A stretch of DNA of 64,000 nt from contig DIRT01000018.1 of assembly GCA_002427605.1 (NCBI GenBank), positions 1,386 to 65,385 on the forward strand, read 5' to 3'. The notes beneath the pieces were generated by a model. That model had not been told where the DNA came from and made no database searches. It saw only the letters and a program-made list of their open reading frames with translations. Source of the stretch: Bacteroidales bacterium UBA5429 (lineage in GTDB: Bacteria; Bacteroidota; Bacteroidia; Bacteroidales; WCHB1-69). The translations under genes and the position numbers were made by a program. Each line of letters begins with the position of its first letter. Within the stretch, counting starts at the first letter, position 1. This document shows, piece after piece, positions 8,564 through 51,183 of this stretch.

Positions 8564-8670
8564 CAAAAGGATTATCCAATTATAACGTGTTTCGTTCAAC
8601 TTTTATTTTCTTTTTTGGCCGAATCTATCGAAAATAGTTATATCTTTGAGAGTTGATTTTTTAGTTGTTT

Positions 8671-8797
8671 TTTTTGGAAATAAAAAAATTAGGGGGCAGA
8701 GGGTTCACTACGCTGTAGATGTTTTTTCACCCCACTCGGAAACATTAAACGCTTTGGATATGCAGGATCAATTACGAATTACGAATTACGAATTACG
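8671..8797 (+). repeat. Dispersed G-run/C-run element, copy A, ending in (AATTACG)x4
   Basis: TTTGGAAATAAAAAAATTAGGGGGCAG...CACCCCACTCGGAAAC...GATCAATTACG repeats; homologous to copies B-F. Confidence 0.8.
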
Positions 8798-9791: not shown

Positions 9792-10020
9792 TTTTTTCAA
9801 TTACGAATTACGGATTACGATTTTACAAGGTAGAAGGTAGAGGGTAGAAGGTAGAATGATTTTGTATTTATTTGAATATCAGAAAGATATGATAAATGGT
9901 TTTCAATTCTCAATTTTCAATACTTTTGCCTTCCGACTTTCGACTTTTTCTCATTCCGCTTTCCCCCTTCAACCTTCCGCCTTTAATTCTATCTTCTACC
10001 TTCTTATTTCTACCTTCAAA

Positions 10021-10125
10021 TAATGGGGGGCAGCATAGATTTTCCTCCTTTGTTATTTTAACTCCCCTCCTCGGGGAAGGAGGGGAGCCCGAAGGGCGGG
10101 GTGGTTATTCCCCACTCTGGAATGT
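10021..10125 (+). repeat. Dispersed element copy B, with a nested REP-like hairpin insert
   Basis: TAATGGGGGGCAG...TTTGTTATTTTA[insert 10061-10103]TTATTCCCCACTCTGGAATGT. Confidence 0.75.
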
Positions 10126-10144
10126 TGTTCCTTGTGGGAAAATG

Positions 10145-10240
10145 GTGGAACGGTTTTCAGGTTGGAGAAGTGGCTGATTTATAATTACTTACTTTTAATT
10201 TAGTACTAAACTTGCCATTTTGCCAAACTGCTTGTTGTGC
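10145..10240 (-). mobile_element. Solitary integron attC-like site
   Basis: Minus strand GCACAAC-AAGCAG-TTTGG-CAAAA-TGGC...GCCA-CTTCT-CCAA-C-CTG-AAAACC-GTT: an imperfect palindrome bounded by an AAC box and a GTT box, starting 2 nt after a TGA. Confidence 0.6.
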
Positions 10241-10242
10241 GG

Positions 10243-10329
10243 TCACCCTTTTTTATCGTCAATTATTTCTTTTACTTTTTCTTCTAACTGTCTCTGGTCA
10301 GGCAAATACAATTGATTATTAGATATTAT
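10243..10329 (-). pseudogene. C-terminal remnant resembling YhcG/DUF1016 PD-(D/E)xK nuclease
   Basis: My translation, IISNNQLYLPDQRQLEEKVKEIIDDKKG*, recalls the SKYQLYLP..EL tail of DUF1016; no start codon; abuts the attC-like site. Confidence 0.4.
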
Positions 10330-10437
10330 TTAAGGTTTCTTTTTCTTTACAAAGATTTTTTTGTAAATATAAGAACCTACTGCTCCACCTACCAAACCAG
10401 AAATTATTATGATAAGCATATCACATAAAGTTGCCAT
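10330..10437 (-). CDS. 35-aa single-TM small protein
   Basis: My translation: MATLCDMLIIIISGLVGGAVGSYIYKKIFVKKKKP*; hydrophobic GxxxG helix and basic tail; below the ORF-track size cutoff. Confidence 0.45.
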   Translation of the reverse strand: MATLCDMLIIIISGLVGGAVGSYIYKKIFVKKKKP

Positions 10438-10585
10438 AATTTTAAAATAATTTACTAATCCATTTACCTAATTTACCAACAACACCAGTAGAGCCAGTAA
10501 TTGCTCCTATAACAGCGGGTAGTGCATAAGTTCGATACTGTCAACTAGGGCAAGGAACTGTTTCATATCTTTGAATTCTTTTTTG

Positions 10586-10593
10586 CAAAGATA
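10586..10593 (-). promoter_or_regulatory. Bacteroidota primary-sigma -7 element (TATCTTTG)
   Basis: Matches the TAnnTTTG consensus; points toward the small ORFs. Confidence 0.55.
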
Positions 10594-10848
10594 TAATATG
10601 TATTTTTAATAATACAATATGTTTTCATTTTTGTATTCTCTAAAATACATTTTTCGGTTTATAAGTCTTTTAAGAAATCAGAAATATGAAATAGATCTAT
10701 TTAAAAATGTAAATACTTGATATTCAAATATTTCTAAATTCTAAACTCTAAATTCTAAATTTATTCATTCCGCCTTCCGCCTTCAACCTTCCGCCTTCGA
10801 GATAACCCCGAAGGGGTGGCATTATTACTAATACAATGTGTTTTGGTC

Positions 10849-11403
10849 TTAATCAGTTGGAATAAAACAACCTCCTTTGATGTTTGGTGAATGCACTATA
10901 CGTGTTTTTTCGTGTTTTTTGTCGATGAACACAGAATCACCATCGAAAAAAATTTCAACTAAAGAGTTCCAAGGTATCCTTATAGCAAAGTCTTCATTTT
11001 CAAAGTAATAAATGGTCATATAATAGGATTTATTGATCTCCAATTTATCATCGCAAGAGTCTGTTGCATATTCAGAAATAATTGTCCAATCCCAATTATC
11101 TAAGTGATCAGTTATTGCTATCAGATTGTACTTTTTATCGTTAAAATTTACGAAACTATCAATATTGAGTACTTTATATAATCTTTTTATCGAATCAATC
11201 TTAAGCGTAATAAAAGTATCTATTATTTCTTTCGTAGAATCATACAATGCAATTGCACGATCCGGATTATCTGCGTACAAATACCTATATTCCCGATATT
11301 CTTCTCCTATTTTCAAACTATCAACCGGTTCCTGGCAAAATAGATTTCCGCTCGTACTGATCATACACAAAATAGAGACTAAAAGTTTTATTAGATTTTT
11401 CAT
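10849..11403 (-). CDS. Hypothetical secreted protein
   Basis: Signal-peptide-like N-terminus; ATG lies 2 nt after the stop of the upstream gene; no family recognised. Confidence 0.75.
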   Translation of the reverse strand: MKNLIKLLVSILCMISTSGNLFCQEPVDSLKIGEEYREYRYLYADNPDRAIALYDSTKEIIDTFITLKIDSIKRLYKVLNIDSFVNFNDKKYNLIAITDHLDNWDWTIISEYATDSCDDKLEINKSYYMTIYYFENEDFAIRIPWNSLVEIFFDGDSVFIDKKHEKTRIVHSPNIKGGCFIPTD

Positions 11404-11405
11404 TT

Positions 11406-12041
11406 TCAATTACTTTTTATTGTGAGTGATCCATCTTCATTGATCAGATAGTAGAAGTAATCTCGTTCTGCTTTTAAATCCCCATAAGAATTTGTACTTC
11501 TAAATAGTGATATTTCTATATGTGATTCATCTATCTTACACAAAGTTTGTTTATAGATATCTTGTGGGTTATCTTCAATCGTTGGATCCTCAGTTACCAA
11601 GACTTGAGAAAAAACTTCCTTCCCGGAGGAATCTAAAACAGCATAAACAAGGGAACGACTCAGATCCCATGATCCCTTAATATAAAATAAGAGAACGAAA
11701 TTTGATGTTCCCGGCCTTTTAAATGCTCGTAATTTATTAATAGCATAAGAACTTCCAACAATATTCCCATCAACATAAACTAAGAATTTTGATAACTTTG
11801 AAATTGCAGATATGTTTACCAAAAAATTCATTTGTAATTCAAAGTTTGTTGGCTCCAGTTCATCCGTATTATCTCCATAATCCAGATCCGTACAATACAA
11901 CGGAAAATCTGTTCTACAATAAGGTTCTATTAATTGCAAAAATGTAGAATCATTTTCACTTCTTACTTCTTGATTATTAATTGAATGCACATTTTGTTGA
12001 ATGCAAAAAAATAATAAAATTGTCAATAGTTGATATTTCAT
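11406..12041 (-). CDS. Hypothetical secreted protein
   Basis: Signal peptide MKYQLLTILLFFC; 211-aa ORF in very AT-rich DNA; no family recognised. Confidence 0.75.
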   Translation of the reverse strand: MKYQLLTILLFFCIQQNVHSINNQEVRSENDSTFLQLIEPYCRTDFPLYCTDLDYGDNTDELEPTNFELQMNFLVNISAISKLSKFLVYVDGNIVGSSYAINKLRAFKRPGTSNFVLLFYIKGSWDLSRSLVYAVLDSSGKEVFSQVLVTEDPTIEDNPQDIYKQTLCKIDESHIEISLFRSTNSYGDLKAERDYFYYLINEDGSLTIKSN

Positions 12042-12194
12042 CTTATCTGTTGTTTTTGATTCATTTTTGTAAAAATATTCTATATTTTTAAAGGATTATG
12101 CATCGATAAAATATCTTTTCCATCTCGAACAAAGGATTTTAAACTCCAAATATAATTATCCTTAAATTCTAACCCCAAATGGGATTTGATACTG

Positions 12195-12202
12195 CAAAGA
12201 TA
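12195..12202 (-). promoter_or_regulatory. -7 element (TATCTTTG) for the two secreted-protein genes
   Basis: TAnnTTTG consensus on the minus strand. Confidence 0.55.
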
Positions 12203-12507
12203 ATAAAAAAGTCGAAAGTTTTTATTATAAATTGAAAATTGAAAGTTGAGAATTGAAAATGGTCAAACATCTATCGTATCTCATTGATATTCATATCAAT
12301 AGCCATGTCCTTTAGGGCATGGTTGGGAATTAACCCCCAAGATATCAAGGGCATTAGCCCAAATTTATTATAATGTTATCTCTATGGGGTTATTAAAAAG
12401 TCGAAAGTCGAAAGACGAAAGGCGAAAGTTTTTATTATAAATTGAGAATTGAAAATTGAGAATTGAAAATGGCATTTATCTTGCTGATATTCAAATAATT
12501 CAACTCT

Positions 12508-12620
12508 CGTAATTCGTAATTGATCACACATGTCCAAAAAGGTCAAACATTCTAGAGTGGGGTGATGGATTAACAAAAAAGACACCCCAAATCCTGCCCC
12601 CCATTTATTTTAAATTCCAA
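12508..12620 (-). repeat. Dispersed element copy C (inverted relative to A and B)
   Basis: 12554-12602 matches 46600-46648 at 48 of 49 positions; the left arm closely matches copy D. Confidence 0.9.
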
Positions 12621-12715
12621 ATAAGAAATATGAAGTAAGAAGTAATTTTGAAGTCGGAAGGCGGAGGGCGGAAGGCGGAATGAAAAAAATCCGAAATCCG
12701 AAATCCGAAATCTTT

Positions 12716-13525
12716 TTAGTTTTTCTTTTCTCTTTCGGCGTAAATTTCGTCGGTCATCATTTGTTTGAGGACTGAGGGGGAGATGTTTCTGGTGAGTTTT
12801 CCGCCTTTACACCAGGAGATGTGACCGGTTTGTTCTGAAACAATGACGGAGATGGCATCGGTATGGGTGGTTGCTCCGATGGCGGAACGGTGTCGTAAAC
12901 CTAAGTCGGAAGGGATTGATTCATCCTCCGATACCGGCAAAATACATCGTGCAGCGGCGATACGGTGGTTAGCAATAATGACAGCCCCATCGTGAAGCGG
13001 TGAGTTTTTATAGAAGAGATTTTCTAACAATTCCTGGGATACCACAGCGTCAATTTCTTGTCCGGTAGCTAAAAACTCATCCAGTGGATTTTTTCTTGCA
13101 AACACCATTAAAGCACCGGTTCTGCTTGCTGACATTCTTTCACAAGCACGTGTAATAGCTTCCACATCTTCTGCATAGTCTGCGGGAATATTTTTCCCTT
13201 TGATGTAGAAACGTGCCCATTTCAAGACTTCAGTATTGCCCAGATAGAGTAAAAACTTCCTCAATTCCGGCTGGAACACCACAATCAACAGAATCACCCC
13301 GACACTCAGAAACTGTTCGAGGATCACGTTCAGCATATTCAACTGGAAGAGAGAGACTGCTTTCCAAATCACAAAAAGGATCATCAATCCGATAAAAATT
13401 CTCACGGCAGCGGTTCCTTTCAGCCATTTGTAAAACTGAAAAAGAATAAACGCAACCAGAAGAATATCAATCAGGTCGGTGATTTTGAATTGAATAAAAC
13501 TTAAAACGTTCAAATAGAGAGTCAT
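12716..13525 (-). CDS. cdaA: Diadenylate cyclase CdaA
   Basis: Three N-terminal TM helices, FQPELR, HDGAVII, GLRHRSA. Confidence 0.93.
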   Translation of the reverse strand: MTLYLNVLSFIQFKITDLIDILLVAFILFQFYKWLKGTAAVRIFIGLMILFVIWKAVSLFQLNMLNVILEQFLSVGVILLIVVFQPELRKFLLYLGNTEVLKWARFYIKGKNIPADYAEDVEAITRACERMSASRTGALMVFARKNPLDEFLATGQEIDAVVSQELLENLFYKNSPLHDGAVIIANHRIAAARCILPVSEDESIPSDLGLRHRSAIGATTHTDAISVIVSEQTGHISWCKGGKLTRNISPSVLKQMMTDEIYAEREKKN

Positions 13526-39691: not shown

Positions 39692-40177
39692 ATGAAAAAA
39701 TGGATCATTATTCCTTTGCTTTTTATAGTTTTCTGTTCATTTCATATACAGCACGGTATGGTTAAAGTGTATCATAAAGATTCCCGCTACTCCTCCGATC
39801 AGATTTGCAACCTTCGGGACGGAAAAGTGTACAAAAAAAGTTCCTCATACTCTTCCGATATTGTTTGTCGGATCGAGGGCAATAAGATTTATAAAAACAA
39901 CTCGACATACAGCACCGATATCATCTATACCATAAAAGAAAACAAGGTTTATAGGGGCAACTCCACCTATTCCAGTGACCAGGTTTACACAATCAAGGAT
40001 GGCAAGGTGTACAAGGGAAACTCCACTTACAGCAGCGATCTTCTTTACACCATCAAGGACAACAAAGTGTACAAAGGCAACTCAACCTACAGCAGTGATT
40101 TGTATTTCAGCTACGATAACTACGTCACCATTGAAGAGTTTGTTGCTATTTTACATGTGGTGAGATATACTTTTTAG
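39692..40177 (+). CDS. Secreted protein with six 20-aa tandem repeats
   Basis: KVYKGNSTYSSDxxYTIKD/E repeats with 60-bp DNA periodicity; the -7 element overlaps the first ATG, so the second Met is preferred. Confidence 0.85.
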   Translation: MKKWIIIPLLFIVFCSFHIQHGMVKVYHKDSRYSSDQICNLRDGKVYKKSSSYSSDIVCRIEGNKIYKNNSTYSTDIIYTIKENKVYRGNSTYSSDQVYTIKDGKVYKGNSTYSSDLLYTIKDNKVYKGNSTYSSDLYFSYDNYVTIEEFVAILHVVRYTF

Positions 40178-40377
40178 ATTTTGGATAATTCGGTATACTT
40201 TTGTTTCAAATAATCATATTCCGATTGATAGCGTTTCAATCTGTCGAGGTCTTTTTGGGTGGGAGCAGATAGGCGTGTTAAGTCCATATTGTTCTGCAGA
40301 TCATACAATTTTACGGTTGTTGCCAGCAACTGTTCTCCTATGGCAGCGGCACTTATAAACACATTGTAGTTTGTCAT
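40174..40377 (-). CDS. Small hypothetical protein (67 aa)
   Basis: Follows prsW on the same strand; helical C-terminus; stop overlaps the convergent gene's stop by 4 nt. Confidence 0.5.
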   Translation of the reverse strand: MTNYNVFISAAAIGEQLLATTVKLYDLQNNMDLTRLSAPTQKDLDRLKRYQSEYDYLKQKYTELSKI

Positions 40378-42364: not shown

Positions 42365-42433
42365 CTAAAGTATAACTTTATTTTTACATGTATTTCTAAA
42401 GTTTGGCTTTATTTTTACATGTATTTCTAAAGT
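42365..42433. repeat. 31-bp direct tandem repeat (about 2.2 units) in the divergent promoter region
   Basis: CTAAAGT-nnnn-CTTTATTTTTACATGTATTT units start at 42365, 42396 and 42427. Confidence 0.85.
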
Positions 42434-42504
42434 ACTAACAGGTTGCGACCTGTCACTATTTGGATAAAAACTCATATCTTTGCAGATTATCAATTTTGTC
42501 ATTT

Positions 42505-43119
42505 ATGGATTTGCAGATTTTTCAATATGGGCAGGAAGAGATCGATTTTCTGAAAGCGCGGGATGAGCGGTTAGCTAAGGTCATAGAACGGTACGGAAAG
42601 ATTGAGCGGCGGGTGAATCCGGATCTGTTTTCGGCGTTGGTGGATATTATTGTCGGACAGCAGATCTCTACCAAAGCGCACCGTACCATTCGGGGACGAT
42701 TTTTGACGGAATTTGGGGCTATTACACCGGAAAGGATGGCACATTCCTCTGTTGAGCAGATCCAAAAAATGGGAATTTCATTCAGAAAAGCGGGAAATAT
42801 CAAAAAGTTGACAGATAAGGTGGTAAACCGGGAGCTTGACCTGGAGCAGTTGCATCACTCGTCGGATGAAGAGGTGTTGAAAGCATTGACCGGTCTGGAT
42901 GGAATCGGGATCTGGAGTGCAGAGATGCTGATGCTCTTTTCAATGCAACGTCCCAATATCCTGAGTTACGGAGACTTAGGGATTCATCGCGGATTGCAAA
43001 GAATATACGAGGTCCCCAAGGTGAGCAAGCAAGAGTTTATGCAGTACCATGAACGATACACCCCTTACGCCTCAGTGGCGAGCTTCTACCTGTGGGCTGT
43101 AGCGAGCGAACAGTCTTGA
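42505..43119 (+). CDS. alkA: DNA-3-methyladenine glycosylase (AlkA/HhH-GPD family)
   Basis: IVGQQIS, HhH LDGIGIWSAE, DLG, PYASVASFYLW. Confidence 0.88.
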   Translation: MDLQIFQYGQEEIDFLKARDERLAKVIERYGKIERRVNPDLFSALVDIIVGQQISTKAHRTIRGRFLTEFGAITPERMAHSSVEQIQKMGISFRKAGNIKKLTDKVVNRELDLEQLHHSSDEEVLKALTGLDGIGIWSAEMLMLFSMQRPNILSYGDLGIHRGLQRIYEVPKVSKQEFMQYHERYTPYASVASFYLWAVASEQS

Positions 43120-43201
43120 AAAGTCGAAAGTCGAAAGTAAATTTAGGATTAACAATCTGACACTCAAATTCGCACTATTTCGGATTTTATTTTATTTTTT
43201 C

Positions 43202-43320
43202 TTTTGGAAATAAAAAAAAAGGGGGGCAGACAAGGCTTTCCTTTTTAGTTATTTTATTTCCCCACTCTGGAATGTAAACCTTTTTGAATATGAGTGATCA
43301 ATTACGAATTACGAATTACG
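43202..43320 (+). repeat. Dispersed element copy E, ending in (AATTACG)x3
   Basis: TTTTGGAAATA9GGGGGGCAG...TTTCCCCACTCTGGAATGTAAACCTTTTTG...GATCAATTACG. Confidence 0.88.
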
Positions 43321-43533
43321 TTTTGAACTGTCATGGAATCAATTCTATATCCTAATTTCTAAATTTACAATCATGTCACCCCTACGGGGTTATTGAAAAG
43401 TCGAAAGTTTTTGCTATAAATTGAAAATGGTTAAATATCTAATGTATTTCATTGATATTCAAATAATTCCGAAATCCGAAATCCGAAATTATGTTGATTT
43501 CGATTTCCGCCTTTTTTTACTCCCGAAATCTGT

Positions 43534-46413
43534 CTATCTCTTTCTCCTTTTCGGTTTCTCTTTCGTAAACAGATCCGCGGTATATTTTTCGTAAAGATCG
43601 AAAAGATAAACCATTCTGTTAGCTTCGCCGGTGAATGGTTGCGGACGATATGCCAAATCTACTGCTTTGTCCAGTTCGTTGTGTGCTTTAACCAATGCAG
43701 GAGGCATCGTCAAAGGATCGTAAAGGTCTGCCAAAGTGCTGTTTGGAAATTCCAGACGAGTATCTAAAACCTTTTGCGCTGCTTCTTCTATGGCTTTTAT
43801 TTGCTTTTCGGTTGGATTTTCAGGCCAAGGATAATTTGTATAAACTATTTCGTTTGAATATCTTAATCTACTTTCTAATCTTCCACAAACTGACTTTACC
43901 CAAGCCATATGCATTGTTGACATTAATATACCAAAATGAAAAAGACCACCATTGGGAATTATATGGCAACTATTATTTGCAATATCATCTTTTCCAAAAA
44001 ATCCCATCGGAATATACTTTCTGTTTTCAGAAGTCGTACTTGGAATTAAAACATAATCACTTTCGGGATGTCTGTCTTCGCCAAATAAGGTTGGAAAAGC
44101 TGCAAGTTTTTGTGTTGTTTGTCTTGAGCTTTTAGCTCTTAATTTTCTTACATTTTCGATTCGTTCTGTAATAAATTTTGCATTTTTTAATTCACTTGGA
44201 TCAGCATTTTTAAGCCATAAACACCAACGTTTGCGACCATTTAGAAATTCGTATGCCGAAATAAGGGGTTTAAAAAATTTTTCTGAGATTGGTTCTTTTG
44301 TTACAAACTCCTTTTTTTCTTCGTCTGTAAACAAAAAATTGCCGCCATCATTGGGCATACTTCCAAATGACATTTCAGGCACGTTGCAAATAGGTTTTTT
44401 GCGTTTATCAATAAAAATGTCCTTTGTATCAACTAAGTAAGGATTGATATTCTTAACTTTTATTTCGTGTGCTTCTCCTCTAATATCTTCATACTCAAAA
44501 ATGCTCTTGTTGTTGGTATCATAATTAGCGAAACCAATTATGATACAATAAACTGCTGCATTTCCTTTAGCTTCATTAATCCATTTAAAAGTACGATGAG
44601 CAAAATGAATTTTGATATTGTAATAATTGAATAACAAGTTCCATAAAATACCCACTTGTTCTCCCTGAGTAATAGAATTGGTGGAAACAAAAGCAACTTT
44701 GGTTGGAGTGTTTGCAATGAGTTGAGCAGCTTTCATATACCATGCAGCTACGTAATCCAGTACACCGAAACCTTTTACTCCCGAAAATACTCGTTGCATA
44801 TCCAACTTTTGCTCCATGTTTTGCTCTTTCTTACCCACGAAAGGAGGATTGCCGAGAACATAATCGAAATGGATTTTTCCTGAAAAAGTTTTAGGATAAG
44901 TCCCCTCGAAAATCTGCACTTTTTTACTGAAAATATTTACGGTATCGTATTGAACTTCAGGCTCATTGACCATAATTATATTGGTAGTATTGGCTTTTAT
45001 ATCAACTTCCGCATTTTTAGTCAGTGCCGACCAATCCATTTGAAGTGCATTTCCTACTGTTATATGTGCCGATTTATTCAATGGTAAACGAGCGTAATAT
45101 TGTCCAAACTCATGGCTAATCCGCATATTCATCTGGTGATCAATCAGCCACATCGCTACTTCGGCAATTCGTGCAGGAAACTCTTCGTACTCAATACCGT
45201 AAAATTGATCAACATCAATAAGAATAATGCTACTGATATCAAGCACTCGTTGTCCGGATTTGTACAACTCCCGTAAAACTTCTAATTCCAGCAATCGCAA
45301 TTCCCGATAGGTGATTACCAGGAAGTTACCGCATCCGCAGGCTGGGTCAAGAAATTTAAGCGTGCTTAACTTTTTATGAAATTCTGTAAGTCTGTTTTTA
45401 TTGCCTTTGATATTTTCAAACTCTTTCCAAAGATCATCCAGGAAAAGTGGTTTGATCAGTTTTAAGATATTGGTTTCGCTTGTATAGTGTGCTCCAAGAT
45501 TTCTGCGTTCCTTCGGATTCATTACACTTTGGAACATGGACCCAAAAATAGCAGGGGAAATCTTACTCCAGTCGATGTGGGTACAATTCAAAAGAGCCTG
45601 ACGCATTTTGCTGTCGAAACTTGCCGTGGGCAGAATCTCTTCAAACAACTTTCCGTTAACATACGGAAATTCAGCCAATTGCTCATCCAGATTTTTAAAT
45701 CTTTGCTCTTTTGGCGTGTTGAGCACCTGAAAAAGTTCTTGCAGTTTCGCTGCCAGGTCACTCCCGTCAACATGGGTACGATGTTCGATATATTCCTGAA
45801 ACTGTTGTTTCTCAAAAATGGTGGTATCTTCAGCAAACAGACAGAAAAGCAAACGCACCAAATAGACTTCCAAAGGGTGTCCGGTATAGCCAATCTCTTT
45901 CAGTCTGTCGTGCAGTTTCCCCATTAACTCGGCTGCTTCTATATTCGCCGGATCCTCTTCTTTGTAAACCTTTTTTTGATAGCCCAATAAGTATCCGAAA
46001 TGCTGAACGTTGTTGATCAAGTCGTTTAGTTTGAACTCTACAAGAGATTCATCTTCAAGGTCATAAAGACGAAAGTTTTCAAAATCGGATACCAGAATAT
46101 ATTTCGGCAATTCATGTTGTTCAAGACCATGAGTGTACTCAATCGCCTGTTGATATGCTCTATCCAGGTTTTTCCCGCGACTTTTCATTTCAATCAAAAT
46201 CGTACCCTTCCAAAGCATGTCGATATAGCCATCTGAGTCGTCCAGCTTTTTAACTCTATGTTCAAAAGTACCAACCCTTTTCCTGCTGATACCAAACACA
46301 TTAAAAAACTCCACCAAAAACGGCTTCGCATCCGCCTCTTCACTCGCGGCATCCGCCCACTCCTTCGAAAACTTCAGCGCCCTATCCTTTATCTCATTCC
46401 AGCTTAATGGCAT
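43534..46413 (-). CDS. MmeI-like type IIL restriction-modification enzyme (endonuclease + N6-adenine MTase + TRD)
   Basis: MPLSWNEI start, YID...IEMKSRG, GAHYTSE, DPACGCGNF (motif I), GNPPF (motif IV), C-terminal LADLYDP..MP. Confidence 0.93.
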   Translation of the reverse strand: MPLSWNEIKDRALKFSKEWADAASEEADAKPFLVEFFNVFGISRKRVGTFEHRVKKLDDSDGYIDMLWKGTILIEMKSRGKNLDRAYQQAIEYTHGLEQHELPKYILVSDFENFRLYDLEDESLVEFKLNDLINNVQHFGYLLGYQKKVYKEEDPANIEAAELMGKLHDRLKEIGYTGHPLEVYLVRLLFCLFAEDTTIFEKQQFQEYIEHRTHVDGSDLAAKLQELFQVLNTPKEQRFKNLDEQLAEFPYVNGKLFEEILPTASFDSKMRQALLNCTHIDWSKISPAIFGSMFQSVMNPKERRNLGAHYTSETNILKLIKPLFLDDLWKEFENIKGNKNRLTEFHKKLSTLKFLDPACGCGNFLVITYRELRLLELEVLRELYKSGQRVLDISSIILIDVDQFYGIEYEEFPARIAEVAMWLIDHQMNMRISHEFGQYYARLPLNKSAHITVGNALQMDWSALTKNAEVDIKANTTNIIMVNEPEVQYDTVNIFSKKVQIFEGTYPKTFSGKIHFDYVLGNPPFVGKKEQNMEQKLDMQRVFSGVKGFGVLDYVAAWYMKAAQLIANTPTKVAFVSTNSITQGEQVGILWNLLFNYYNIKIHFAHRTFKWINEAKGNAAVYCIIIGFANYDTNNKSIFEYEDIRGEAHEIKVKNINPYLVDTKDIFIDKRKKPICNVPEMSFGSMPNDGGNFLFTDEEKKEFVTKEPISEKFFKPLISAYEFLNGRKRWCLWLKNADPSELKNAKFITERIENVRKLRAKSSRQTTQKLAAFPTLFGEDRHPESDYVLIPSTTSENRKYIPMGFFGKDDIANNSCHIIPNGGLFHFGILMSTMHMAWVKSVCGRLESRLRYSNEIVYTNYPWPENPTEKQIKAIEEAAQKVLDTRLEFPNSTLADLYDPLTMPPALVKAHNELDKAVDLAYRPQPFTGEANRMVYLFDLYEKYTADLFTKEKPKRRKR

Positions 46414-46548
46414 AATTTAATTTTGTAATTCAAGCTACAAATGTACAACAAAAACCTTAATTAGGATTAATAGGATTAAAAGATTTTAGGATTAAAAAAA
46501 GGCGGAAAGCGGAAGTCGAAAGTCGAAAGTTTTTTCATTTCTAAGTCC

Positions 46549-46670
46549 CGTAATTTGTAATTCGTAATTCGTGTCATTTTCTAAAAGGTATTATATTCCA
46601 GAGTGGGGTGATGGATTAACAAAAAAGACACCTCAAATCCTGCCCCCCTTTTATTTTTATTTCCAAAAAA
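46549..46670 (-). repeat. Dispersed element copy F (inverted relative to E)
   Basis: Near-identical core to copy C; immediately downstream of the murG stop. Confidence 0.9.
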
Positions 46671-46675
46671 AGAGT

Positions 46676-47785
46676 CTACTTTTTAAGATTCAAAATCGCA
46701 TTGACAATATCCTCAATCGCATTGGGGAAGGAGAATTGTTTCATTTTTTCACCCATTTGGATGGCGCGTTCCTCATCTTCCAGTAATGCCGTTAGGTTCG
46801 GGATTAATTGGCTATGTACCTCACTATCAGGGATCATAATGGCTGCACCATGGGTTGACAGCGCGGACGCGTTCATGGTTTGGTGATCTTCCGCCGCATA
46901 AGGGAACGGAATCAGGATTGTGGGCGTTCCAATCAGGGTGAGCTCCGCAATCGCCAACGCGCCGGCACGGGAAACAATCAGATCGGCAACGCTGTAAGCA
47001 TGGTCCATCCGCTGAATAAAGGGCACAATCTTGATATTTTCACTTTGGATTTGAATCCAATGGGGGGGAAGCGTTTTGTAAAACAGCTCGCCCGTTTGCC
47101 AAATCAGTTGTAGCTGAGGATTATTAAAGGTGTCCATATTGGAAGCAATGGTCTGGTTGATAGAGCGTGCTCCCAGACTGCCGCCCATCACTAAAATGGT
47201 CTTTTTATTGGGATCCAATCCGAAATATTCGAATGCTTCCTCTCTTTTTTTGACTACCTGACTGATCTCCGCACGGACGGGATTACCGGTTAATACAATC
47301 TTCTCTTTGGGGAAATATTTCTCCAATCCTTCATAAGCGACAAAGATTTTTTGCACTTTTTTAGCAACCCAGCGGTTGGTCATGCCGGGATAGGAGTTTT
47401 GCTCCTGGATTACAGCAGGAATTTTGAGCGCAGTGGCAGCCCGAAGGGCAGGACCGCTGGCAAAACCACCCACACCAATAACTACATCCGGATTGAAAAA
47501 GCGAATGATCTTTTTCGCTTTGTTGTACGCCTTGAGTAGCACAAAAGGAAGCTTGAGATTGCTCATGATTCCCTTGAGGTTAAAATCTCTGCTTACTCCG
47601 TAAATTTTCAATCCTTCGATAGGATAACCGGCATCGGGAACCCTTTTCATCTCCATCTTATTTTCAGCACCAATAAAGAGAATGTCAGCATCCGGAACCT
47701 CTTTTTTGATCTGGTTGGCAATCGCTAAGGCGGGGAAAATGTGTCCTCCGGTTCCCCCTCCGGAGATGATAAAACGTTTATTCAT
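46676..47785 (-). CDS. murG: Undecaprenyldiphospho-muramoylpentapeptide beta-N-acetylglucosaminyltransferase
   Basis: GGGTGGHIFP, GVGGFAS, EQN, GNPVR, GGSLGA, SRAGA, DHQ..NA. Confidence 0.96.
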   Translation of the reverse strand: MNKRFIISGGGTGGHIFPALAIANQIKKEVPDADILFIGAENKMEMKRVPDAGYPIEGLKIYGVSRDFNLKGIMSNLKLPFVLLKAYNKAKKIIRFFNPDVVIGVGGFASGPALRAATALKIPAVIQEQNSYPGMTNRWVAKKVQKIFVAYEGLEKYFPKEKIVLTGNPVRAEISQVVKKREEAFEYFGLDPNKKTILVMGGSLGARSINQTIASNMDTFNNPQLQLIWQTGELFYKTLPPHWIQIQSENIKIVPFIQRMDHAYSVADLIVSRAGALAIAELTLIGTPTILIPFPYAAEDHQTMNASALSTHGAAIMIPDSEVHSQLIPNLTALLEDEERAIQMGEKMKQFSFPNAIEDIVNAILNLKK

Positions 47786-50192: not shown

Positions 50193-50321
50193 GGTTAGAG
50201 GTCATTGTAAAGCAATAACTTTTTGAGCAAAGCGAAGAAAACTTATAGAAACTATTCAATACGATACCGCTATCATTTATCTTTTTTTGTAAGTTTGTGA
50301 TTTATTTATTCAGAGAATTTT

Positions 50322-51140
50322 ATGGCAAAAGGGAGAATACTACAAGTAAAAGAATCCGAAATAACGGTTATTAGTCAGCAGAATACCGATTATATCAGTC
50401 TTACGGATATGACCGTTAATTTTCGAGAAGGTAGCGGACTGATAGGCAAATGGATAACCAACAAAAACACGATAGAATATCTCGGCGTTTGGGAGAGAGT
50501 AAATAATCCCGATTTTAATTACCCCGAATTCGGGGTAATTGGACAGGAAGCGGGTACGAACAGATTTATGATGTCAGTTGGTCAATGGATTGAAAGGACG
50601 AAAGCCGTTGGAATGCTCGTAAAAGCCGGGAGATACGGTGGAACTTATGCACATAAAGATATCGCATTTCACTTTGCAATGTGGTTGAGTCCCGAATTTC
50701 AAATCTACTTGGTTAATGAGTTTCAACGTCTTAAAGACGAAGAGAATAACCGTTTGAAATTAGAGTGGAATTTGCAACGGACTCTTGCTAAAATAAACTA
50801 CCAAATTCACACCGACGCAATCAAGGAAAACCTTATTCCACAAGAAATCACAAAACAGCAAGCTAATATTGTTTATGCCAACGAAGCCGATTTGCTAAAT
50901 GTTGCTCTTTTTGGAATTACAGCGAAAGAATGGCGAGATAGCAACCCCGATAAGGCGGGAAACATAAGAGATTATGCCACTTTAGAACAGCTTGTTGTGT
51001 AGAGCAATATGGAGAGCGTAAATGCATTGTTAATTCAACAAGGTTTATCACAAAGTGAAAGACTTCTACAACTCAATAAAGTAGCTATTACACAAATGAA
51101 ATCGCTACTTGCAAGCAGCACAATGAAAAAGCTGAAATAG
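50322..51140 (+). pseudogene. KilA-N domain protein interrupted by an in-frame TAG at 51000-51002
   Basis: DYISLTDM, GRYGGTYAH; past the TAG the frame continues as SNMESVNALLIQQGLSQSERLLQLNKVAITQMKSLL, the expected family C-terminus, to a TAG at 51140. Confidence 0.8.
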
Positions 51141-51183
51141 GAAAACAACGAACTGCTATAAGTCAAGTCATATTCCTTTGTGA

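What the first reader, a model, noticed from the sequence alone, without database searches (positions are those of the whole stretch)
43202..46670. MmeI-like R-M gene bracketed by inverted copies of the element
Seen: between the convergent genes alkA and murG the order is copy E (+), REP and heptamer module, R-M gene (-, with its own TACATTTG promoter), heptamers, copy F (-). The outer ends are inverted (TTTTGGAAAT ... ATTTCCAAAA). At 33.4 kb one copy sits alone between convergent genes, which could be the empty state. Established: single-chain type IIL enzymes are self-sufficient defence units that are often mobile. Inference: a composite cassette mobilised or inverted between element copies. 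I found no target-site duplication.
Basis: partly seen in the sequence, partly recalled or inferred. Interest (0 to 1): 0.62.

Follow-up and report, generated by a model that had tools for sequence, protein, structure and literature searches.

The report
Restriction gene lodged inside a repeat doublet
An intact MmeI-type restriction-modification gene lies between two inverted copies of a short repeat, but that repeat occurs about 170 times in this genome and normally forms such inverted pairs, so the pair belongs to the site and is not the ends of a transposon carrying the gene.

Summary
E (43198-43330, +) and F (46540-46671, -) are inverted copies, 83% alike. They bracket an intact 959-aa MmeI-family gene (43534-46413, -) between an alkA-like gene and murG.

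The composite-cassette reading is only partly supported.
- The copies belong to a lineage-specific "two-box" repeat with 167 copies in 2.1 Mb.
- All 20 adjacent pairs of that repeat closer than 1 kb are inverted in the same way.
- E and F are no more alike than random family members.
- There is no target-site duplication, and no RAYT-type (Y1) transposase was found in this genome.

The closest relative (G005) has an alkA-murG junction without the gene. It keeps the E orthologue and a (-) copy there. It does not keep F in place, only F's 17-nt outer tip.

G005 carries a homologue (86% aa, recognition domain replaced) inside another inverted pair elsewhere. That place holds an empty doublet in this genome.

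About 80 homologues in other bacteria have no copies nearby.

Best reading: a solitary R-M gene that relocates among repeat-capped intergenic mosaics by recombination through their shared repeats.

The parts
42460..43119 (+). It is the left core gene of the convergent pair.
   Evidence: Pfam PF00730, E 3e-15. It is 96.8% aa identical in G005.
43121..43138 (+). AAGTCGA heptamer array that starts right at the alkA stop codon.
   Evidence: family D3. It is absent from G005 at this place.
43198..43330 (+). Copy E of the two-box repeat. It consists of an outer A/T arm, GGGGGGCAG, a 30-nt centre, CCCCACTCTGGAAT, an inner flank and 3 x AATTACG. The outer arm faces alkA, 81 nt from its stop.
   Evidence: nhmmer 73.6 bits and alignment with F. 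Its outer arm and heptamers are orthologous to G005 L013 10134-10260, but the centre differs.
43325..43533 (.). Mosaic module between E and the MmeI stop. It holds a REP-like hairpin (GTCACCCCTACGGGGT), AAGTCGA and AAATCCG heptamers, and TTCCGCC followed by T7.
   Evidence: A similar module lies in G005 next to murG (L013 10800-10993) and elsewhere (G005:C62, 91%), so it is itself a repeated module.
43534..46413 (-). Intact MmeI-family type IIL/IIG restriction-modification gene, 959 aa. It has a PD-ExK nuclease motif (IEMKSRGK), the SAM motif DPACGCGNFL, the catalytic NPPF motif, and a target recognition domain at about aa 640-865.
   Evidence: Five MmeI Pfam domains, PDB 5HR4 at E = 0, PADLOC REase_MTase_IIG at 1228 bits. 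GC 38.1% and GC3 35.7% are typical of this genome.
46414..46480 (-). Leader and putative Bacteroidota-type promoter. TACATTTG lies at 46445-46438, 24 nt before the ATG.
   Evidence: About 66 nt upstream of the ATG are nearly identical in the G005 homologue's locus. The promoter assignment rests on the consensus only and was not tested.
46481..46548 (.). Heptamer mosaic upstream of the gene: TAGGATT units, then A7-GGCGGAA and AAGTCGA units. It forms the inner inverted repeat with 43498-43538.
   Evidence: (I2, 41 nt, 80%).
46549..46671 (-). Copy F of the two-box repeat, with 3 x CGTAATT on its inner side. Its outer arm ends 5 nt from the murG stop.
   Evidence: nhmmer 78.8 bits. It is 92-93% identical to copies on other contigs. 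At this position G005 has only the last 17 nt, TTTTATTTCCAAAAAAA.
43531..46654 (.). Block present in this genome and absent from the alkA-murG junction of G005. It comprises the MmeI ORF, its leader, the upstream mosaic and most of F.
   Evidence: blastn and MAFFT junction mapping. G005 has 9 nt (CGAAATCAC) in its place.
46676..47785 (-). murG, the right core gene of the convergent pair.
   Evidence: Pfam PF04101 and PF03033. It is 99.7-100% aa identical in G005.

Best explanation
The locus holds a solitary, intact MmeI-family (type IIL) restriction-modification gene with its own short leader and promoter. It sits in the interior of one of this lineage's many repeat-capped intergenic mosaics.

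E and F are the caps of the alkA-murG intergenic region. In this family the A/T-rich outer arm of a copy faces the nearest gene. Two copies sharing one intergenic region are always inverted, with their inner ends facing each other.

The gene is accessory. In the closest relative the same junction lacks it. There a homologue with a replaced target recognition domain lies inside another such pair, at a place where this genome has an empty pair.

Shown: the anatomy, the family size and orientation rule, the empty and filled sites in the two genomes, and the absence of transposon hallmarks.

Inferred: the gene (with variable amounts of adjacent mosaic, here including F) was moved between mosaics by recombination or gap repair through the repeats that all mosaics share. 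These are the two-box copies and the heptamer arrays. It did not move by transposition of an E-gene-F unit.

The enzyme itself should act like MmeI, by homology and untested here. It would recognise an asymmetric site, methylate one adenine on one strand, and cut about 20 nt away.
For: Family size and distribution:
- 167 copies at E < 1e-5 in 2.11 Mb.
- The pattern GGGGGCAG-N26-38-CCCCACTC occurs 154 times here and 131 times in G005, but at most once in each of the 29 other relatives searched, including 5 of the same genus.

Orientation rules:
- All 20 adjacent pairs closer than 1 kb are (+,-). They cap intergenic regions of every gene-orientation type, and their interiors are mosaics of heptamers and REP-like hairpins.
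- The outer arm faces the nearer gene in 37 of 38 doublet members and in 66 of 97 solo copies, p = 5e-4. E and F follow this rule: 81 and 5 nt to alkA and murG, against 251 and 170 nt to MmeI.

E and F are not a special pair:
- E-F identity is 70.7%, at the 33rd percentile of 7875 family pairs. F is 92-93% identical to copies on four other contigs and to the copy at 12.5 kb in this window.
- Other (+,-) brackets enclose housekeeping-type genes that I recognised by eye from their sequences, without a family search: PPDK, a UDP-sugar dehydrogenase and an SDR.

Comparison with G005:
- The alkA-murG junction reads alkA, E orthologue (+), mosaic, (-) copy, mosaic, murG, with no MmeI.
- The MmeI homologue (86% aa) lies on G005:C18 between a (+) and a (-) copy. 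The (+) copy and about 100 nt interior to it are collinear with this genome's empty doublet at C17:16390-16815.
- Homology between the two MmeI loci is clear only for the ORF plus about 66 nt of leader.

Negative evidence for a transposon:
- 80 homologues (67-83% aa) in other bacteria have no copies in their loci (flanks up to 5 kb). In the four closest, homology stops at the ORF.
- No Y1/RAYT gene is present in this genome.
- There is no target-site duplication.
- Composition is native.

Control:
- A defence-candidate gene (PDC-S22) is a clean presence/absence difference 4 kb away, with no copies at its borders.
Against: - Both MmeI homologues of this lineage lie inside (+,-) pairs, although only about 0.2-0.6% of genes are so flanked. 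That hints at a tighter link than passive lodging.
- F is part of the block that G005 lacks at this site, so at least one copy may have travelled with the gene.
- The shared perfect homology between copies is short: an outer arm plus box of about 25 nt, and a second box of 8-14 nt. That is marginal for RecA-dependent exchange.
- All mosaic modules are repeated elsewhere. Orthology of individual pieces between the two genomes is therefore uncertain, and the direction of movement is unknown.
- The second site is also disturbed by a large inversion and an IS in this genome, so it has no clean empty state.
- Both genomes are metagenome assemblies. Misjoins at repeats cannot be fully excluded, although the window has no N runs and the G005 contig is collinear with this genome well into the doublet.
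Confidence: 0.6

Rival explanations
1. Composite, transposon-like cassette. E and F are terminal inverted repeats, and E-MmeI-F moves as one unit with the help of a transposase acting in trans.
For: - Inverted copies about 130 nt long bracket one self-sufficient gene.
- The G005 homologue is also bracketed by a (+,-) pair.
- F is absent from its position in G005.
- R-M genes flanked by inverted repeats with an 8-bp duplication are on record (PMC2853133).
Against: - There is no target-site duplication.
- The E orthologue is present at the empty site.
- The repeats are high-copy (167), and E and F are no more alike than random members.
- The inverted arrangement is the family default, 20 of 20.
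- The copy on the 5' side of the G005 gene is positionally orthologous to a copy of an empty doublet here, not to F.
- No Y1/RAYT transposase is present in this genome.
Confidence: 0.06
2. Site-specific cassette exchange. The two-box copies are recombination sites for an unidentified recombinase. Whatever lies between an inverted pair can be inverted or swapped with the content of another pair, as with recombinase-mediated cassette exchange or the pdif modules of Acinetobacter plasmids.
For: - The orientation rule for pairs is strict.
- The boxes GGGGGGCAG and CCCCACTC are invariant around a variable centre.
- Orthologous copies have near-identical flanks but a wholly different centre: window 8670-8749 against G005:C40:62330; E against E'; C17:16734 against L031 9028.
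- The breakpoints of the alkA-murG substitution fall just after box 1 of E and in the outer arm of F.
- The copy next to alkA in G005 carries an F-type centre, as an inversion would leave it.
- MmeI is filled or empty reciprocally in two doublets.
Against: - No candidate recombinase was identified.
- The F-type centre is a common subfamily (at least 5 near-identical copies), so that match may be coincidence.
- The centres flanking the two MmeI genes are not conserved: 7 of 30 and 10 of 31 mismatches against 97% identity in the gene.
- Which copy is resident and which travels differs between the two sites.
- Other insertions and deletions in the same window have no copies at their borders.
- No read evidence could be obtained.
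Confidence: 0.12
3. No link at all. The gene was inherited at one place and lost or rearranged in the other lineage. The repeats simply accumulate in any long, dispensable intergenic DNA, including the spacers created by an inserted gene.
For: - Outside the recognition domain the two homologues are as alike (93-100% aa) as core genes, and composition is native. This fits an old resident gene.
- Copies occur in all kinds of intergenic regions.
- The region differs between G000 and G005 by seven insertions or deletions in 64 kb.
Against: - It requires two independent coincidences of a rare (+,-) bracket.
- E and F have their outer arms towards alkA and murG and their inner ends towards MmeI. This is the geometry of one doublet split by an insert, not of copies added next to a resident gene.
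- Both places have an empty doublet in the other genome.
Confidence: 0.2

Closest known systems
MmeI and the MmeI family of type IIL (IIG) restriction-modification enzymes (PMC2731913; structure 5HR4, PMC4833311)
   Same: - One polypeptide of about 920-960 aa with the same five domains in the same order.
- Alignment to MmeI over nearly the whole chain.
- The PD-ExK, DPACGCGNFL and NPPF motifs are present.
- The specificity residues E806, R808 and R810 are kept, as ESRLR.
   Different: - It has about 50 extra residues at 465-517.
- S stands at the positions of MmeI E751 and A774, so the site may differ from TCCRAC.
- Activity and specificity are untested.
[quoted passage not shown]
   Same: - A single R-M gene lies between imperfect inverted repeats.
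- There is a filled and an empty site in close relatives.
- The recognition domain is replaced between close relatives.
   Different: - Here the repeats are high-copy and present at the empty site, and there is no duplication.
- It therefore falls in that paper's classes 'between repeated sequences' or 'substitution', not in its transposon-like class. That class required repeats absent from the empty site and from the rest of the genome.
REP/BIME mosaics and REPIN doublets (PMC3116915, PMC3337134)
   Same: - Short, high-copy, lineage-specific extragenic repeats.
- They are typically paired in inverted orientation and embedded in mosaics with other motifs.
   Different: - The pairs here are 200-800 bp apart with complex interiors, against about 100-bp hairpins for REPINs.
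- Partners are less alike than random members.
- No RAYT gene is present in this genome.
- Neither the single copies folded nor the family consensus form a stable hairpin.
pdif (dif) modules of Acinetobacter plasmids (PMC6449649, PMC13141974)
   Same: Accessory genes sit between inverted copies of a short site, and modules shuffle between locations that already carry the sites.
   Different: - Those sites are 28-bp XerC/XerD sites with a known recombinase.
- Here the sites would be about 80-nt two-box repeats in a chromosome, with no known enzyme.
- Exchange is inferred from only two genomes.

Membership tests
MmeI family (type IIL R-M) | Domain order: N-terminal nuclease, helical spacer, gamma-class N6-adenine methyltransferase, target recognition domain, C-terminal domain, all in one chain. 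| tested here: met
   PF20464, PF20465, PF20473, PF20466 and PF20467 all match far above their cut-offs and in this order. PADLOC REase_MTase_IIG matches at 1228 bits.
MmeI family (type IIL R-M) | Catalytic motifs: the PD-ExK nuclease motif (D...EMK), the SAM-binding motif, and NPPF/Y. | tested here: met
   The alignment to 5HR4 shows IEMKSRGK, DPACGCGNFLV and LGNPPFVGK conserved.
MmeI family (type IIL R-M) | Cleavage about 20/18 nt from an asymmetric site, and methylation of one strand only. | not testable with these tools
   This needs the enzyme or methylome data.
Transposon-like R-M unit with terminal inverted repeats (PMC2853133) | The inverted repeats are absent from the empty site of a relative. 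| tested here: not met
   The G005 alkA-murG junction keeps the E orthologue and a (-) copy. Only F itself is missing from its position.
Transposon-like R-M unit with terminal inverted repeats (PMC2853133) | The repeats are unique to the unit, not a high-copy family. | tested here: not met
   There are 167 copies in the genome. E-F identity is at the 33rd percentile of family pairs.
Transposon-like R-M unit with terminal inverted repeats (PMC2853133) | A short direct target-site duplication outside the repeats. | tested here: not met
   The flanks read ...TTATTTTTTC|E and F|AAAGAGTCTAC, with no direct repeat. The junction comparison with G005 shows none either.
REPIN/RAYT system | Inverted doublets of the repeat are the predominant arrangement. 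| tested here: met
   20 of 20 adjacent pairs closer than 1 kb are (+,-).
REPIN/RAYT system | A cognate RAYT (Y1 transposase) gene is present in the genome. | tested here: not met
   PF01797 has no match in this genome (98% complete). G005 has one full copy and two fragments.
REPIN/RAYT system | Each repeat unit is a short palindrome that forms a hairpin. | tested here: not met
   Folding z-scores range from 0.3 to -1.1. The consensus fold pairs only GGGG with CCCC, and no covarying pairs were found.
dif-module-like cassette exchange | Modules are bounded by inverted recombination sites and found in alternative locations that already carry such sites. | tested here: inconclusive
   Two reciprocal filled and empty doublets were seen in G000 and G005. 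The boundaries are not the same at the two places, and only two genomes carry the repeat.
dif-module-like cassette exchange | A recombinase that acts on the sites. | not tested
   No candidate was identified. Only Y1 transposases were screened.

The most novel reading that the evidence does not exclude
The two-box copies may be recombination sites of an undescribed chromosomal cassette-exchange system. DNA between an inverted pair could then be inverted or swapped with the content of any other pair. That DNA could be as small as the 30-nt centre of a single copy, or a whole interior carrying a gene such as MmeI. On this reading the roughly 170 copies would form a genome-wide set of landing pads for accessory and defence genes. 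The replaced centres of otherwise identical orthologous copies would be the footprints of that exchange.
Probability: 0.1. Interest if true: 0.75.

Novelty: new member of a known kind. Interest (0 to 1): 0.33.

Why it matters
The gene is an ordinary, probably active MmeI-type defence enzyme. The inverted repeats around it do not define a new mobile element.

The case is a warning. In genomes rich in REP/BIME-like repeats, a gene bracketed by inverted copies is expected now and then.

What remains of interest is that two close relatives carry the gene in different repeat pairs and with different recognition domains. This shows how such mosaics serve as flexible places for defence-gene turnover.

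The repeat family also has features that are not explained: a strict pairing rule, and centres replaced between invariant boxes. These could point to an active recombination process.

Tried and rejected
- **Rfam scan of the whole window:** no family matched.
- **RNA folding of E, F and the 33.4-kb copy on both strands:** no stable structure, z-scores 0.3 to -1.1. The consensus fold and mutual information over 126 copies showed only GGGG/CCCC and no covariation. Small-RNA and classical-terminator readings were therefore dropped. One terminator-like hairpin (A-tract plus G6 pairing with the pyrimidine tract) was found in E on the + strand, but such hits were no more frequent than in shuffled sequence.
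- **Gene-3'-end rule:** I first thought each copy follows a gene in the same sense. Genome-wide this holds for only 91 of 159 copies, so I replaced it with the 'outer arm faces the nearest gene' rule.
- **Cargo test:** other (+,-) brackets hold genes I recognised by eye as PPDK, a UDP-sugar dehydrogenase and an SDR, plus a secreted protein. Brackets are therefore not specific to mobile genes.
- **Foreign composition of the MmeI gene:** none.
- **RAYT search:** none in this genome.
- **Simple inversion between E and F to explain the G005 junction:** the F-like centre next to alkA fits. The orientation of the shared module next to murG does not, and the modules are repeated elsewhere. This is left open.
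- **Tracing the copy in G005 that has E's exact centre (G005:C62):** it led only to more shared mosaic modules.
- **Clean empty state of the G005 MmeI site in this genome:** blocked by a large inversion and an IS.
Full report
**1. What is at the locus**

The window is C19:1386-65385 of a 2.11-Mb, 44-contig assembly with about 37% G+C. Earlier notes call it an uncultured Bacteroidales bacterium, and the closest named homologues are also from Bacteroidales MAGs.

Two convergent genes flank the region: a 219-aa HhH-GPD glycosylase gene (42460-43119, +) and murG (46676-47785, -). Between them lie:
- copy E (43198-43330, +);
- a mosaic of a REP-like hairpin and heptamer arrays;
- a 959-aa ORF (43534-46413, -);
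- more heptamers;
- copy F (46540-46671, -).

E and F align as reverse complements at 83% over about 130 nt, including three AATTACG units on the inner side of each. A further inverted pair (43498-43538 / 46474-46514) lies against the ORF. The whole region is therefore a nested imperfect palindrome with the gene at its centre.

The ORF has all five MmeI domains. It aligns with MmeI (5HR4) over nearly the whole chain and keeps the nuclease, SAM and NPPF motifs. It is the best PADLOC match to type IIG enzymes.

**2. What E and F are**

A profile of the 83-nt core finds 167 copies at E < 1e-5 in the genome, about one per 12 kb. The core is an A/T-rich outer arm, GGGGGGCAG, a centre of about 30 nt, and CCCCACTCTGGAAT.

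The box pattern occurs 154 times here and 131 times in one close relative (G005). It occurs at most once in each of the 29 other relatives searched, five of them in the same genus.

New here:
- All 20 adjacent pairs closer than 1 kb are (+,-), with the outer arms pointing away from each other.
- These doublets fill whole intergenic regions of any gene orientation. Their interiors are mosaics of heptamers and REP-like hairpins.
- The outer arm faces the nearer gene in 37 of 38 doublet members and in 66 of 97 solo copies.
- E and F obey this rule with respect to alkA and murG, and they turn their inner ends to the MmeI gene.
- E and F are not a special pair. Their identity (70.7% over the core) is at the 33rd percentile of family pairs, and F has 92-93% matches on other contigs.
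- Ten of 1613 predicted genes have copies within 500 nt on both sides. Three of these are (+,-). The other two single-gene brackets hold a secreted protein and an SDR-like protein, and the PPDK-like and UDP-sugar-dehydrogenase-like genes sit together in a wider 4.4-kb bracket. These names are my reading of the sequences by eye, not family searches.
- The copies do not fold well, show no covariation and match no Rfam family.

**3. The relative's alkA-murG junction**

G005 has flanking genes 93-100% identical in protein. Its junction (L013 10094-11026) has no MmeI gene. It has:
- a (+) copy next to alkA, whose outer arm and AATTACG units are collinear with E but whose centre is different and F-like;
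- 410 nt of mosaic;
- a (-) copy;
- 230 nt of mosaic similar to window 43325-43530;
- then TTTTATTTCCAAAAAAAGAGTCTAC, which is the outer tip of F and the murG end.

Relative to G005, this genome has a 3.1-kb block (43531-46654): ORF, leader, upstream mosaic and most of F. G005 has 9 nt in its place. This genome in turn lacks 560 nt of G005 mosaic with its (-) copy. No direct repeat marks the junctions.

**4. The relative's own MmeI gene**

G005 has a homologue (86% aa) on another contig. It lies between a (+) copy (L031 9028-9110) and a (-) copy (12938-13008), together with a 194-aa ORF of unknown function.

The (+) copy, its inner flank, and the next 100 nt or so are collinear with the X-side half of this genome's empty doublet at C17:16390-16815. 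Each genome therefore has an empty doublet where the other has the gene.

The far side of that G005 site cannot be compared cleanly. The two genomes differ there by a reciprocal junction swap (mutase|X and Y|MnmG against X|Y and MnmG|mutase), which is a large inversion. This genome also has an IS transposase at the Y|MnmG junction.

Clear one-to-one homology between the two MmeI loci covers the ORF and about 66 nt of leader, including TACATTTG. Beyond that the architecture is similar, but the copies are not orthologous.

The two proteins are 93-100% identical over residues 1-600 and 880-959, but only 33-62% over 640-840, the recognition domain. By the published residue rules (PMC2731914):
- this enzyme keeps E806, R808 and R810 (position 6 C, position 4 purine);
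- the G005 enzyme has Q at R810 and K and G at E751 and N773, so a different site is expected.

This is an inference from homology.

**5. The gene elsewhere**

Two same-order genomes carry homologues (70% and 66%) among genes with housekeeping-type domains (RelA/SpoT, DUF58, TerC, TPR), with no copies nearby. A scan of species-representative genomes gave 80 loci with 67-83% identity across Bacteroidota and other phyla. None has a two-box copy. In the four closest, nucleotide homology stops within about 20 nt of the ORF.

The gene's G+C and GC3 are typical of the host genome.

**6. Other differences in the window**

Seven insertion/deletion differences separate the 64-kb window from G005. Two are associated with (+,-) brackets: this one, and 9795-12704, which holds two ORFs without known domains. 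In the second case G005 has a 480-nt mosaic without two-box copies.

The others have no copies at their borders. One is a clean 990-nt insertion of a PADLOC PDC-S22 candidate gene between convergent genes. Accessory-gene turnover here does not depend on the repeat.

**7. Reading**

The evidence fits a solitary R-M gene lodged in the interior of a pre-existing repeat-capped mosaic and relocated between such mosaics. The most economical mechanism is recombination or gap repair through sequences that all mosaics share. That step is inferred.

A transposon delimited by E and F is contradicted by several points:
- the empty site in G005;
- the copy number of the repeat;
- the ordinary similarity of E and F;
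- the lack of a target-site duplication;
- the absence of a RAYT-type (Y1) transposase.

A site-specific exchange system acting on the boxes is not excluded. Several observations would fit it:
- the strict pairing rule;
- breakpoints next to box 1 of E and in the arm of F;
- orthologous copies with near-identical flanks but a wholly different centre, for example window 8670-8749 against G005:C40:62330.

No enzyme is known for such a system, only two genomes carry the repeat, and the boundaries differ between the two MmeI sites.

**8. Comparison with what is known**

The enzyme is a new member of the MmeI family (PMC2731913, PMC4833311).

The arrangement belongs to the classes 'insertion between repeated sequences' or 'substitution' of Furuta et al. 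(PMC2853133). It does not belong to their transposon-like class, whose defining features were tested here and not met. The recognition-domain replacement between close relatives matches the allelic diversity they reported for type IIG genes.

The repeat family resembles REP/BIME and REPIN doublets (PMC3116915) but fails two of their defining features: a RAYT gene and a hairpin unit.

pdif modules (PMC6449649) are the closest model for the speculative exchange reading.

**Verdict**

The bracket is a property of the repeat family and of the site, and the cassette interpretation is only partly right. Interest is modest. The unexplained behaviour of the repeat family is the part worth following.

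Noticed in passing
window 8670-8749 vs G005:C40:62330-62404; also E vs L013 10134-10260; G000 C17:16734-16815 vs L031 9028-9110: Orthologous two-box copies in two close genomes keep 97-100% identical flanks and identical boxes, yet carry a completely different centre of about 30 nt, taken from another subfamily of the repeat. Other orthologous copies keep their centre; the 33.4-kb copy has 1 mismatch. This looks like patch replacement bounded by the boxes.
   Followed up: partly
whole genome (G000); examples C15:84899-85356 and C17:16390-16815: All 20 adjacent copy pairs closer than 1 kb are inverted with outer arms outward. Partners are less alike (mean 67%) than random family pairs (73%). 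The outer arm faces the nearer gene in 66 of 97 solo copies.
   Followed up: yes
window 50193-51181: A clean insertion of about 990 nt relative to G005, between convergent genes, carries a 226-aa gene (50322-51002) that matches the PADLOC defence candidate PDC-S22 at E 2e-112. No repeats lie at its borders.
   Followed up: partly
window 9795-12704: A second (+,-) bracket (copies at 10018-10130 and 12541-12623) encloses two overlapping ORFs (10849-11409 and 11406-12041, -) with no Pfam or PADLOC match. G005 has a 480-nt mosaic here without two-box copies, and the shared modules are in swapped order.
   Followed up: partly
window 40176-40340 and 42421-42465 (G005:C40:91292-95366 and 97448-105441): G005 has 4.1-kb and 8-kb insertions at these points, just left of alkA. 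They encode large secreted and TPR-repeat-like proteins (read by eye from the sequences; no family search was run). The neighbourhood is a variable region in both genomes.
   Followed up: no
G000 C17:14146-17541 and C43:22165-26645 vs G005:C18 and G005:C150: There is a reciprocal junction swap between the two genomes (mutase|X and Y|MnmG against X|Y and MnmG|mutase). This amounts to a large inversion with breakpoints in mosaic intergenic regions. G000 has an IS (DDE transposase, C43:23029-24519) at one breakpoint.
   Followed up: partly
window 43534-46413 (aa 640-840) vs L031 9324-12200: The recognition domain of the MmeI homologue is replaced between the two close genomes (33-62% identity against 93-100% elsewhere). 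A different recognition site is predicted.
   Followed up: partly
window 10060-10110: The copy at 10018-10130 carries an extra G+C-rich hairpin (CTCCCCTCCTCGGGGAAGGAGGGGAG...) inserted just before box 2. The same insert occurs in a copy on C44 (about 900-960).
   Followed up: no
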